Shown here in pieces: positions 12,001 through 15,000 of a stretch of DNA of 64,000 nt. Location: assembly GCF_057098645.1 (NCBI RefSeq), contig NZ_CM169472.1; one strand, given 5' to 3'. Position numbers: made by a program. The stretch's first letter is position 1. Each line of letters opens with the position of its first letter.

Positions 12001-15000
12001 AAGAATTGCCGTGTATGGCCGAGAATGTCGTTTATAGCGGAGCGTTTCATCGAAAGCGTTCTCCTTAGCGGTGACCGGGCAGCTGCGCCGCCCGGCGCGT
12101 GGACTTATTTCACCGTCCAGCCTTTGTAATTGCCGACGTTGTTTTTATCGATCATCGTCACCGGGATCAGCACCGGCTCTTTCGGCGCAGGTTTGCCCTG
12201 CAAAATGTCGTAGCCAATTTCCACCGCTTTCGCTGCCATCACCTGGGGATCTTGCGCCGGAGTAGCGACAAACAACGAGTTCTCACGCTTGAGCGCCTCT
12301 TCGGCGTCCGGGCTTCCGTCCACACCGACAATAAAGAACTCGTTACGTTGCGCCTGTTTTGCTGCCAGATCGGCACCGATTGCGGTGGGATCGTTAATCG
12401 CAAATACGCCGTCGATCTTCGGATTTGCCGCCAGCAGTCCCGTCATTACCTCCAGCCCGCCTTCACGACTGCCTTTCGCGTTCTGGTTGTCAGAGAGCAC
12501 TTTGATGTCAGGATGGCGTTTAAATTCAGTCTGGCATCCTTCGACGCGGTTTTGCACGGCGGATACCGGCGGGCCGTTGATGATCACCACATTGCCTTTG
12601 CCTTTCAGGCGATCGGTGATGTATTTACAGGCCATTTCGCCCGCCTGGGTGTTATCGGAGGTGATGGTGGCATCAGCACCTTCTGCCGCTACGTCAACCG
12701 CGACGACTACGATCCCGGCATCTTTCGCCCGTTTCACCGCCGGGCCGATCCCTTTTGAATCGGCAGCGTTGAGGATAATCATATCGACGTTAGCGGCGAT
12801 AAAGTTGTCTATCTGCGACACCTGCTGACCCAGATCGTAGCCGCTGGAAACCAGCGTCACTTTGACGTTATCGCCTGCCAGTTTGCGTGCTTCCAGCTCC
12901 GCGCCTTTGGTGATCTGCACGAAGAACGGGTTCGCCAGATCGCCCACCGTTACGCCTATCGATTTCAGTTCTTTCGCTTGGGCGAACGGTGCTGCGGCCA
13001 GCAGCGCGCCTGCACAGAGCGCGGTCACTAAGGGCTTCAATCTCATGCTGTATTCCTCATGTGTTTATGCACTTTGATGGTGTCGGGTACGGTATTTGTC
13101 GATCAGCACCGCAATGATGATCACCGCCCCTTTGATCACCAGTTGCCAGAAGTAAGAGACGCCCATTAAGGTCATGCCATTGTTGAGCGTGGCGATAATT
13201 AGCGCGCCGACCAGCGTGCCGGTGATGGTGCCGATGCCGCCGACAAAACTGGTGCCGCCGAGGATCACCGCTGCAATGGCATCCAGTTCGTAACCCATGC
13301 CTAAGTTGCCGTTGGCGCTGTACAGCCGTGAGGCGCTCATAATCCCGCCAAGCCCAGAAAGCAGGCCGCTCATGCCATAAACAAACAGCAGCACCAGCCA
13401 GACCTTAATGCCGGTAAGACGCGCCGCCTGCATATTGCCGCCGACGGCGTAGATATGAACGCCAAGCGTGGTGCGGCGTAGAATAAACCAGCACACCACG
13501 ATCACCGCCAGCGCAATCACCACCAGCCATGGGACCGGCCCGAGATAGTTGTTGCCTATCCACTCGAAATTAATGTTGGAGTTGATAACCGTGGTGCCGT
13601 CCGCCAGCAGATACGCCGCCCCGCGCAGCGCCGTATAGGTGCCAAGCGTAACGATAAACGGTGGCAATCCGGCAAAGGCCACCAGCGCGCCGTTGAACAG
13701 CCCCAGCAGCAGGCCGAGCATCAGCGCTGCCGGGATCGACAGCATGGCGAACTCAGGGCTAAGGGAGACGACCATCGCCGCCACCGCTGTGGTGCCGAGG
13801 ATCGAACCCACGGAAAGATCGATCCCGCCGGTCAAAATGATGAAGGTCATCCCCGCGGCCAGAACAATGTTGATCGATGCCTGGCGGGTAATATTCAGCA
13901 GGTTGCTTTCGGTAAAAAAGTTTGGCGCGATAAAGCCAAATACCGCCACGATCAGAATCAAAATGGGCAAGATGCCGACCGTTTGCATCAGATCGCTCAT
14001 CAGCATTTTTTTGGCAGAGGTTTTTGCAGAGGTCGTCATGAGGTTACCGCCTGGGAATGGGCGTCGTTGACGCCAGTCGCTAAGGTCATAATGTTTTCCT
14101 GGGTGATGTTTTTGCCGTTTAACTCACCGGCAATGCTGCCTTCGCGCATCACATAGACGCGATCGCTCATTCCCACTATCTCCGGCAGTTCGCTGGAGAT
14201 CATCAGGATCGCCACGCCCTTGCGCGCCATCTCGTTCATGATCCGGTAGATCTCACTTTTGGCGCCAACGTCCACGCCGCGGGTGGGTTCATCGAGCAGT
14301 AAAATGCGCGGGCCAATCGCCACCCAGCGGGAGATCAACAGTTTTTGCTGATTGCCGCCGGAAAGCCCGCCCGCGCGTACCTGGGCATGAGGCACGCGAA
14401 TGTTGAGCAACTTGATGGCGTCATCGGAAATGGTTTGCGCTTTTTTGCGATTGAGCATTCCCCAGCTGGCATCGCGCTCCAGGGTTGCCATGGTGATGTT
14501 TTCGGCTGCTGCCATTTCAAGGAATAAGCCTTGTTCTTTGCGGTTTTCGGTGAGAAAACCAATGCCAAGATCGATGGCTTCGCGCGGGGAGTGGATCACC
14601 ACCGGTTCACCATCGACTTCAATCATTCCGCCTGTCGCTTTCCGCACGCCGAAGATCAACTGCGCCAGTTCGGAACGTCCGGCTCCTACCAGCCCGGCGA
14701 GGCCGACAATTTCGCCGGAACGCACCAGCAGGCTACTCGGCTGGACTTTGCCACCGTCGGTCAGGTGGTGAACATTCAGGCGGGCTTTGCCGAGCGGGAT
14801 ATCGCGCTCTTTATTGAACAGATCGCTCAGTGGCCTGCCGACCATCATCCGCACCAGCTCCCCGGCATTGAGGTTATCGCGGGTCAGGCTGCCAACGTAT
14901 TGCCCGTCGCGCAGCACGCTGACGCGATCGGAAAGCTCATACACTTCCGCCATACGGTGGCTGATGTAGATAATCGCCATCCCTTCATCGCGCAGCCGCA

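What the first reader, a model, noticed from the sequence alone, without database searches (positions are those of the whole stretch)
12105..13046. Periplasmic binding protein may double as co-sensor for the hybrid kinase (TorT/TorS-like logic)
The kinase has a roughly 250-residue, Ala/Leu/Gln/Glu-rich (probably all-helical) periplasmic domain between its two TM segments, like TorS, and the regulator is OmpR-family like TorR. TorS and LuxQ sense ligand through RbsB-fold binding proteins. The single RbsB-like protein encoded here could both feed the transporter and report sugar occupancy to the kinase.
Basis: inference. Interest (0 to 1): 0.5.

Follow-up and report, generated by a model that had tools for sequence, protein, structure and literature searches.

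The report
Sugar-binding protein as possible kinase co-sensor
The gene is the binding protein (LmuZ) of the published mannose/lyxose island of pathogenic E. coli O157:H7. Its neighbouring virulence-controlling kinase has a sensor shaped like one that works through such a binding protein, but whether LmuZ really reports sugar to the kinase is still untested.

Summary
Window 12105-13046 (-) encodes a secreted RbsB-fold binding protein inside a sugar ABC operon, flanked by a hybrid kinase and an OmpR-family regulator.

The locus is already published. It is EHEC island OI-167: kinase LmvK/RbfS, regulator LmvR/RbfR, operon lmuKAIZYX, and the finding is LmuZ. Mannose and lyxose induce the operon through LmvK/LmvR, and riboflavin has also been reported as a signal. 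Neither paper asks how the kinase senses sugar, and neither tests LmuZ.

- The 250-residue periplasmic domain is predicted to be an all-helical double four-helix bundle. TorS is its best full-length structural match.
- This sensor family is tiny and sits beside this transporter in every locus with enough flanking DNA.
- LmuZ has the lowest non-synonymous divergence in the locus. The sensor domain is the most divergent part in the distant comparisons.
- A fused AlphaFold model gave no confident docking (pTM 0.49), with no positive control.
- The reported riboflavin response does not need LmuZ.

Verdict: a plausible, unproven new member of the binding-protein-dependent kinase class. It is closer in logic to GltB/GtrS or ChvE/VirA than to TorT/TorS. 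Confidence is about 0.4 and interest is moderate.

The parts
8790..9497 (+). [not shown]
   Evidence: Pfam Response_reg plus Trans_reg_C; RefSeq CDS; named in PMC9860305 and PMC10128022.
9494..10495 (-). lmuK: PfkB-family sugar kinase.
   Evidence: Pfam PfkB 1.1e-35; operon naming from PMC10128022.
10492..11352 (-). lmuA: class II ketose-1,6-bisphosphate aldolase.
   Evidence: Pfam F_bP_aldolase 6e-91; NCBIfam PRK06801 at 572.8 bits, above its cut-off.
11367..12050 (-). lmuI: D-lyxose/D-mannose isomerase.
   Evidence: Pfam Lyx_isomer 3e-92; NCBIfam LyManIsomGneg at 438 bits against a cut-off of 350.
12105..13046 (-). [not shown]
   Evidence: Peripla_BP_4 1.1e-56; PDB 4RWE at E 3.7e-167; lowest dN in the locus, 0.031.
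13065..14039 (-). lmuY: ABC permease (BPD_transp_2).
   Evidence: Pfam 7.5e-41.
14036..15556 (-). lmuX: ABC ATPase with two nucleotide-binding domains; first gene of the operon.
   Evidence: Pfam ABC_tran, two stretches; RefSeq start.
15604..15646 (.). Conserved control block in the divergent lmuX/lmvK intergenic region. It holds three phased (T)GT(T)CA repeats, the LmvR site TCATAT-N3-TCATAT at 15629-15643, and the tor-box-like decamer CCGTTCATAT at 15625-15634.
   Evidence: Sequence. The block is conserved where it is visible in the printed 112-nt stretch of related loci, and in loci with GC-rich insertions it lies away from the kinase start. It is the only exact match in the window. The published footprint is ATATGA-N3-ATATGA. 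No sigma-70 consensus promoter was found nearby.
15670..17934 (+). [not shown]
   Evidence: Pfam; NCBIfam best matches are PRK13557, CckA and VirA-like; RefSeq CDS.
15784..16533 (+). Periplasmic sensor domain of LmvK (residues 39-288), predicted to be a double four-helix bundle. The most conserved segments are residues 59-88, 139-158 and 239-258.

Best explanation
LmuZ is the substrate-binding protein of the LmuXYZ mannose/lyxose ABC importer. It most likely has a second job: when loaded with sugar it docks on the TorS-like double four-helix-bundle periplasmic domain of the hybrid kinase LmvK (RbfS). The kinase would then phosphorylate the OmpR-family regulator LmvR, which binds the TCATAT-N3-TCATAT repeats in the divergent lmuX/lmvK promoter region and switches on lmuXYZIAK, including lmuZ itself (a positive loop), and in EHEC also ler. 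What is shown: the anatomy, the sensor fold prediction, the locus-wide linkage, sugar induction through LmvK/LmvR, and the LmvR site. The last two come from published work. What is inferred: physical contact between LmuZ and LmvK, and any dependence of signalling on LmuZ.
Against: A fused LmuZ-(G4S)6-sensor AlphaFold2 model built on 21 paired sequences gave pTM 0.49. That matches my rough estimate for two undocked domains. Purified RbfS is reported to respond to riboflavin on its own. A plasmid said to carry rbfS and rbfR with native promoters conferred riboflavin responsiveness on C. rodentium and on three other EHEC serotypes, which the paper reports as lacking rbfSR. So the kinase can apparently be activated without LmuZ. 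The sensor domain is the most divergent part in the comparison with the two most distant loci (26-29 % identity where LmuZ keeps 74 %), which argues against an extensive conserved interface. Tight linkage of kinase and transporter is expected for any regulator of the operon, whatever the sensing route. No orphan, transporter-free binding protein of the TorT type was seen in the loci surveyed. The relative-rate comparison rests on 6 non-independent outgroup pairs that probably have other substrates.
Confidence: 0.42

Rival explanations
1. Direct sensing. The LmvK periplasmic bundle binds mannose or lyxose itself, as the HBM domain of McpS binds malate and acetate. LmuZ serves transport only.
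Against: To my knowledge no four-helix-bundle sensor is established to bind a neutral sugar directly. The double specificity (a hexose and a pentose) mirrors the isomerase and transporter substrates, and would have to be duplicated in an unrelated fold. No binding experiment has been reported.
Confidence: 0.25
2. Transport-coupled or cytoplasmic sensing. The kinase monitors the working transporter (permease LmuY or ATPase LmuX, as in DctA-DcuS, BceAB-BceS or PstSCAB-PhoR) or an intracellular sugar derivative, for example through the PAS_7 domain that most orthologues carry.
For: The kinase is linked to the whole ATPase-permease-binding protein unit, not to the binding protein alone. The permease is conserved as strongly as the binding protein. 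Most orthologues have a cytoplasmic PAS_7 domain between HAMP and HisKA.
Against: The E. coli kinase lacks the PAS domain yet still mediates sugar induction. The periplasmic domain keeps a highly conserved patch, which suggests it has a function. Mannose also enters E. coli by other routes, and the paper's manA-dependent growth on mannose implies this.
Confidence: 0.15
3. Riboflavin is the physiological ligand and is bound directly by the kinase. The sugar effects are indirect (metabolic, or through regulator expression), so LmuZ is irrelevant to signalling.
For: Riboflavin at 20 uM enhanced autophosphorylation of purified RbfS. A plasmid described as carrying rbfS and rbfR with native promoters transferred riboflavin-responsive LEE induction to hosts reported to lack rbfSR.
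Against: The kinase/transporter/isomerase module is conserved in soil, plant and animal-associated gammaproteobacteria that have no LEE. The regulator's only exact site in the window is in the sugar operon promoter. Mannose and lyxose induction requires lmvK. No riboflavin binding constant or binding site has been reported. In vitro autophosphorylation was the same from 10 to 200 uM riboflavin.
Confidence: 0.1

Closest known systems
GltB / GtrS / GltR of Pseudomonas aeruginosa (glucose)
   Same: The binding protein of a sugar ABC importer is encoded together with the transporter and the two-component genes. [quoted passage not shown] That is a precedent for one kinase with both a binding-protein route and a direct route, as mannose and riboflavin would be here.
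   Different: GltB is SBP_bac_1 family, not Peripla_BP_4. The GtrS sensor domain matches no known profile and is not known to be TorS-like. Dependence on the binding protein is shown there and not here.
ChvE / VirA / VirG of Agrobacterium tumefaciens
   Same: A Peripla_BP_4 sugar-binding protein that also serves an ABC transporter. A kinase with a C-terminal receiver and no HPt domain. An OmpR-family regulator. A link between sugar sensing and virulence genes. NCBIfam VirA-like scores 1.7e-64 over the kinase core, and VirG is the regulator's second-best match.
   Different: The VirA periplasmic domain is described as dCache-like, whereas this one is a double four-helix bundle. chvE is not adjacent to virA. 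Scores are far below the equivalog cut-offs (218 against 647, and 180 against 344), so this is not an orthologue.
TorT / TorS / TorR (TMAO)
   Same: TorS is the best full-length structural match for the sensor domain. TorT is a Peripla_BP_1/4-fold protein. The regulator is OmpR-family and binds TCATAT-containing direct repeats similar to the tor box.
   Different: There is no sequence-level relationship: Pfam, a PDB profile search and the 1.84-billion-protein HMMER scan all failed to link the sensor to TorS. TorT is a dedicated sensor protein with no transporter. TorS carries an HPt domain and runs a four-step relay. The ligand there is TMAO, not a sugar.
XylFII / LytS / YesN of Clostridium beijerinckii (xylose)
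   Different: XylFII is a dedicated, transporter-less paralogue. The LytS sensor is a single bundle of about 120 residues. The organism is a Firmicute, and the kinase and regulator classes differ.
Published description of this very locus (LmvK/LmvR-lmuKAIZYX; RbfS/RbfR)
   Same: The same genes in EHEC. Mannose or lyxose induction through LmvK/LmvR, the LmvR footprint, riboflavin-enhanced RbfS autophosphorylation and ler activation are all published (PMC10128022, PMC9860305, PMC11644481).
   Different: In the main texts I searched, neither primary paper uses the word 'periplasmic' or describes a test of lmuZ in signalling. They give no structure or family assignment for the sensor domain, and they describe the system as essentially restricted to EHEC. 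Supplements for the riboflavin paper were not available.

Membership tests
Binding-protein-dependent sensor kinases (three-component systems) | A periplasmic binding protein is encoded with the kinase and regulator. | tested here: met
   lmuZ lies between lmvR and lmvK. This holds in all related loci with enough flanking DNA.
Binding-protein-dependent sensor kinases (three-component systems) | A physical complex forms between the binding protein and the kinase sensor domain. | tested here: inconclusive
   The fused AF2 model gave pTM 0.49 and mean pLDDT 79, with no confident docking. The sensor was modelled as a monomer, only 21 paired sequences were used, and no positive control was possible.
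Binding-protein-dependent sensor kinases (three-component systems) | Signalling is lost when the binding protein is deleted but transport components are kept. | not testable with these tools
   Only growth of a lmuZYX triple deletion on lyxose has been reported. No expression data are available.
TorS-type sensor (TorS sensor domain / HBM-like) | A bimodular four-helix-bundle periplasmic fold. | tested here: met
   [not shown]
TorS-type sensor (TorS sensor domain / HBM-like) | Sequence membership in the TorS sensor or HBM profiles. | tested here: not met
   No Pfam hit at E <= 10 apart from a spurious one. No PDB sequence or profile hit to TorS. Among the 58 HMMER relatives, the full-length ones examined are all LmvK orthologues.
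TorS/TorT/TorR system | A dedicated binding protein without a transporter, and a kinase with an HPt domain (four-step phosphorelay). | tested here: not met
   lmuZ is the third gene of an ABC operon. No HPt domain is present in the kinase. The TorT equivalog scores 41.9 bits against a cut-off of 200.
VirA-like sensor kinase (NCBIfam NF010411) | An equivalog-level match over the full length. | tested here: not met
   218.2 bits against a cut-off of 647, and the match covers only the kinase core and receiver, residues 376-749. The architecture (receiver but no HPt) is shared.
RbsB ribose-binding protein (NCBIfam NF007936) | An equivalog-level match. | tested here: not met
   149.6 bits against a cut-off of 337. 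It shares the same Pfam family (Peripla_BP_4) and fold only. The published substrate range is lyxose and mannose.
CUT2-type sugar ABC importer binding protein | A signal peptide, the Peripla_BP_4 fold, and co-transcription with a BPD_transp_2 permease and a double-domain ATPase. | tested here: met
   Co-transcription was shown by RT-PCR in PMC10128022.

The most novel reading that the evidence does not exclude
LmvK would be a two-route integrator. Sugar occupancy would reach it through the transporter's own binding protein, LmuZ, docking on a TorS-fold bundle. A second gut cue, riboflavin, would act on the kinase directly. One horizontally acquired kinase would then merge a host-mucus sugar signal and a microbiota vitamin signal to time type III secretion. 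This would combine a TorS-type sensor fold, a VirA-type kinase core and a dual-use transporter binding protein, a mix not described so far.
Probability: 0.15. Interest if true: 0.6.

Novelty: new member of a known kind. Interest (0 to 1): 0.4.

Why it matters
This two-component system is reported to control the LEE type III secretion system and gut colonisation of E. coli O157:H7. Two groups have assigned it different signals (riboflavin; mannose and lyxose) without establishing how either is perceived. If LmuZ is the sugar receptor for the kinase, three things follow. The real specificity determinant, and a possible anti-virulence target, would be a soluble periplasmic protein with a close solved homologue (4RWE). 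The two published signals could be reconciled as two separate input routes. The list of transporter binding proteins that double as kinase co-sensors would gain an enterobacterial, TorS-fold example. The comparative data also correct the published picture: the module is not an EHEC speciality. It is an old sugar-utilisation unit found in Enterobacterales, Pasteurellaceae, Tolumonas, Aeromonas and Vibrio.

Tried and rejected
1. Sequence links from the sensor domain to known families were negative. This covered Pfam at E <= 10, phmmer and a profile search against PDB sequences, tblastn against 72,556 plasmids, and phmmer against 1.84 billion representatives. The TorS resemblance is at fold level only.
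2. The word-indexed homologue search with the N-terminal fragment returned only truncated or frameshifted proteins. These were usable for an alignment but not for judging distribution.
3. The AlphaFold fusion of LmuZ and the sensor gave no docking signal. I do not treat this as refutation.
4. I considered residue covariation or a mirror-tree test between LmuZ and the sensor and rejected it. LmuZ is 92-97 % identical across most pairs and all genes share one phylogeny, so any signal would be confounded.
5. I looked for a natural experiment, meaning a binding protein plus kinase without permease and ATPase, or a second orphan binding protein. None was found in the 88 related loci surveyed (L002-L088, L095, L096).
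6. Supplementary transcriptome and ChIP tables of the riboflavin paper are not held, so I could not check whether z5685-z5691 responded to riboflavin.
7. I rejected recent horizontal transfer as the reason for LmuZ's high conservation, because synonymous differences are high in every gene (mean pS 0.46-0.74).
8. I rejected calling the protein RbsB or TorT, because both equivalog cut-offs were missed.

Full report
**Observation.** The ORF at 12105-13046 (-) encodes a 313-residue protein with an N-terminus that looks like a signal peptide (…AQA|KE) and a full-length Peripla_BP_4 domain at 1.1e-56. RefSeq annotates it as an ABC transporter substrate-binding protein. A near-identical protein has a solved structure, 4RWE, at E 3.7e-167. 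It is RbsB-like at family level only, because the RbsB and TorT equivalog cut-offs are both missed.

It lies in a minus-strand operon: ATPase (14036-15556), permease (13065-14039), binding protein, D-lyxose/D-mannose isomerase (11367-12050), class II aldolase (10492-11352) and PfkB kinase (9494-10495).

A hybrid kinase (15670-17934, +) is transcribed divergently. It has two hydrophobic segments (residues 16-38 and 288-309) around a 250-residue stretch rich in Leu, Ala and Gln, followed by HAMP, HisKA, HATPase and a receiver domain. It has no HPt domain. An OmpR-family regulator (8790-9497, +) converges on the far end of the operon.

**What the locus is.** The 9.3-kb stretch is 100 % identical to chromosomes of E. 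coli O145 and related EHEC strains. It is present in 421 of 5,426 complete E. coli genomes, between yjcS and yjdP/phnP. It is the O-island OI-167 and has been studied twice.

- Yang et al. (mBio 2023, PMC10128022) named the same genes LmvK/LmvR and the operon lmuKAIZYX, so the finding is LmuZ. They showed that mannose and lyxose induce the operon and lmvR, and that induction needs lmvK and lmvR. LmvR protects a 22-nt site with the repeats ATATGA-N3-ATATGA in the lmuX promoter. Deleting lmuZYX or lmuI impairs growth on lyxose.
- In the main text of either primary paper the word 'periplasmic' does not occur, and no test of lmuZ in signalling is described. The mBio model simply draws 'LmvK senses mannose' with dashed arrows and 'an unknown Hpt'. 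A 2024 review lists the signals as 'riboflavin/mannose'.

**The sensor domain.** It has no Pfam match and no sequence or profile match to any PDB chain. An AlphaFold2 model built on 38 orthologues is entirely helical, with pLDDT 83.5 and pTM 0.66.

- Foldseek ranks the V. parahaemolyticus TorS sensor 3i9y first (probability 1.0, TM 0.71 normalised to the target), followed by TorS-TorT complex chains, PilJ and McpS.

'TorS-like' is therefore right at fold level. However, the same double four-helix-bundle fold includes receptors that bind ligands directly (McpS) and receptors that work through binding proteins (TorS; CtpL according to the review). Fold alone does not decide the question.

**Kinase core and regulator.** The kinase core is closest to the PRK13557, CckA and VirA-like group (a receiver but no HPt). 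VirG is the regulator's second-best match.

**Comparative genomics.**
- A genome-collection scan with the sensor alignment gave 145 relatives. The best 80 loci were fetched and are all Enterobacteriaceae.
- In every locus with enough flanking DNA the kinase is divergent from ATPase-permease-binding protein, and the regulator closes the unit. The catabolic genes are variable. None was detected next to the unit in Raoultella and a few other loci, and only the isomerase was detected in several Cedecea-type loci.
- Starting instead from the binding protein, orthologues with 79-87 % identity in Yersinia, Sodalis, Erwinia, Tolumonas, Aeromonas, Vibrio and Pasteurella all carry the kinase and regulator, 7 of 7.
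- An exhaustive phmmer search of 1.84 billion representative proteins found only 58 relatives of the sensor domain, most of them fragments. The two most distant full-length ones (26-29 % sensor identity) sit in the same module.
- Transporter homologues with 52-60 % binding-protein identity occur in Burkholderia, Comamonadaceae, Paracoccus and Shinella. They keep the ATPase-permease-binding protein order but are preceded by ROK or DeoR regulators and have no LmvK-like hybrid kinase.

The sensor domain thus seems to exist only next to this transporter. That fits a co-sensor, but it equally fits any dedicated regulator of the operon.

**Evolutionary rates.** These were measured against 15 genera. 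Synonymous differences are high in every gene (mean pS 0.46-0.74). Non-synonymous divergence differs sharply:

| Gene | dN |
|---|---|
| Binding protein | 0.031 |
| Permease | 0.039 |
| ATPase | 0.075 |
| Aldolase | 0.091 |
| PfkB kinase | 0.125 |
| Isomerase | 0.133 |
| Hybrid kinase | 0.167 |
| Regulator | 0.194 |

- High conservation of LmuZ therefore reflects purifying selection, not recent transfer.
- In 28 pairs within the kinase-linked clade, the binding protein is on average about 3 identity points more conserved than its permease. In 6 pairs of ROK- or DeoR-regulated relatives it is 3-13 points less conserved. This suggests an extra constraint on LmuZ. The outgroup is small, non-independent and probably has other substrates.
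- In the opposite direction, the sensor domain is the most divergent part in the comparison with the two most distant loci (26-29 % identity where LmuZ keeps 74 %).
- Within the sensor, residues 59-88, 139-158 and 239-258 are strongly conserved. A handful of positions survive as far as Pasteurella: T66, L76, E84, E88, R143 and H144 are invariant, and Q78 and Y/F85 nearly so. This could be a docking patch or a small ligand pocket.

**Promoter.**
- The 113-nt intergenic region holds a roughly 40-nt block, GTAAATGCAAAATGTCAGAAGCCGTTCATATTTGTCATA. The block is conserved in related loci where the printed stretch shows it. In loci with GC-rich palindromic insertions it lies away from the kinase start.
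- The block carries three (T)GT(T)CA repeats at 10-11-bp phasing.
- TCATAT-N3-TCATAT at 15629-15643 is the reverse complement of the published LmvR footprint repeats, and it is the only exact copy in the window.
- CCGTTCATAT matches the tor box consensus CTGTTCATAT at 9 of 10 positions.
- No sigma-70 consensus promoter is present, which fits activator dependence.

**Docking test.** I fused mature LmuZ, a (G4S)6 linker and the periplasmic domain for 21 paired loci spanning E. coli to Pasteurella, and ran AlphaFold2.
- Both halves folded, with mean pLDDT 79.2.
- The pTM was 0.49, which matches my rough estimate for two well-folded but unplaced domains of this size.
- This is 'no predicted interaction' by a weak test. 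The sensor was a monomer, although TorS works as a dimer.

**Weighing the explanations.** I put LmuZ-mediated sensing first, at about 0.42.
- The inducers are neutral sugars, and they match the transporter and isomerase substrate range.
- To my knowledge, four-helix-bundle receptors with well-established neutral-sugar sensing work through binding proteins (Trg with RbsB or MglB, Tar with MalE, LytS with XylFII).
- The sensor's best structural match is a kinase that depends on a binding protein.
- LmuZ is unusually constrained.
- The gene arrangement, with the binding protein encoded alongside both transporter and signalling genes, is that of GltB/GtrS, CBP/ChiS and BctC/BctE.

The rivals are direct sugar binding by the bundle (0.25), transport-coupled or cytoplasmic sensing (0.15), and riboflavin as the true direct ligand with indirect sugar effects (0.10).

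The riboflavin data show that the kinase can apparently be switched on without LmuZ. They do not exclude a separate binding-protein route. GtrS is reported both to bind small ligands directly and to require glucose-loaded GltB.

**Comparison and verdict.** In logic the system is closest to GltB/GtrS/GltR and ChvE/VirA/VirG, where a transporter binding protein doubles as co-sensor. In sensor fold it is closest to TorS. It is not a member of the TorS/TorT family, for three reasons: there is no sequence relationship, the kinase has no HPt domain, and the binding protein is not a dedicated sensor protein. It is also not an equivalog of VirA, RbsB or TorT.

The locus itself is already known. The co-sensor idea is untested and, if true, would add a new member to a known kind. 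Interest is moderate (0.4). A specialist would not be surprised, but the test is simple, and it would settle how a virulence-linked EHEC kinase perceives its signals and why two different signals have been reported.

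Noticed in passing
window 15670-17934, compared with L083-L088, L096 and many of L020-L081: The E. coli, Citrobacter and Enterobacter kinase (754 aa) lacks a roughly 100-residue PAS_7 domain between HAMP and HisKA. Most orthologues (about 850-880 aa in Yersinia, Erwinia, Sodalis, Tolumonas, Aeromonas and Pasteurella) carry it, and split tblastn matches suggest the same extra segment in Kosakonia, Buttiauxella and Cedecea. PAS domains often bind flavins, yet the riboflavin report concerns the PAS-less form.
   Followed up: partly
window 15625-15634: The LmvR site sits in a decamer (CCGTTCATAT) that matches the TorR tor box consensus CTGTTCATAT at 9 of 10 positions. Cross-recognition between TorR and LmvR targets seems possible.
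   Followed up: partly
window 9494-9497: The convergent genes lmvR (+) and lmuK (-) overlap by 4 nt at their stop codons. This leaves no room for terminators, so read-through antisense transcription between regulator and operon is possible.
   Followed up: no
window about 18690-18730, and the intergenic regions of L013, L017, L019, L025, L026, L064, L076 and others: GC-rich palindromic repeats of the type CCCTCTCCC…GGGAGAGGGTTAGGGTGAGGG lie between the LmvR boxes and the kinase start in many genera. A similar element lies downstream of yjdP in the window. The E. coli and Citrobacter intergenic region (113-114 nt) has none.
   Followed up: no
window about 18075-18278: RefSeq marks a GNAT acetyltransferase pseudogene fragment (missing its N-terminus) between the kinase and yjdP. 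I take it to be a scar of the island's insertion in place of the allose (als) locus.
   Followed up: no
literature on this locus (PMC9860305 and PMC10128022): The two papers disagree on three points. On signal: riboflavin against mannose and lyxose. On phosphotransfer: direct in vitro transfer against 'an unknown Hpt'. On the kinase's role: the mBio study found that deleting lmvK did not change LEE expression, while the PNAS study's account attributes riboflavin induction of LEE to rbfS and rbfR mutants. Both treat the system as essentially confined to a few E. coli serotypes, although the module is widespread in gammaproteobacteria.
   Followed up: partly
L085 (Vibrio sp. SA48): The kinase there is split into three ORFs and the aldolase into two, so the locus appears to be decaying. 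The binding protein stays intact at 80 % identity.
   Followed up: no
L068: A contig labelled Chryseobacterium sp. 18061 carries an Enterobacteriaceae-type copy of the whole module (binding protein 94 %, kinase 77 %). It is nearly the same as one from a Citrobacter isolate of the same project (L023). This is probably contamination or mislabelling in the public record.
   Followed up: no
L082, L083, L085, L086, L095, L096: More distant versions of the module carry additional ROK-family kinase genes, FGGY-family kinase genes, or both. In the Pasteurellaceae-type layout the regulator sits directly next to the binding-protein gene and the catabolic genes form a separate unit.
   Followed up: no
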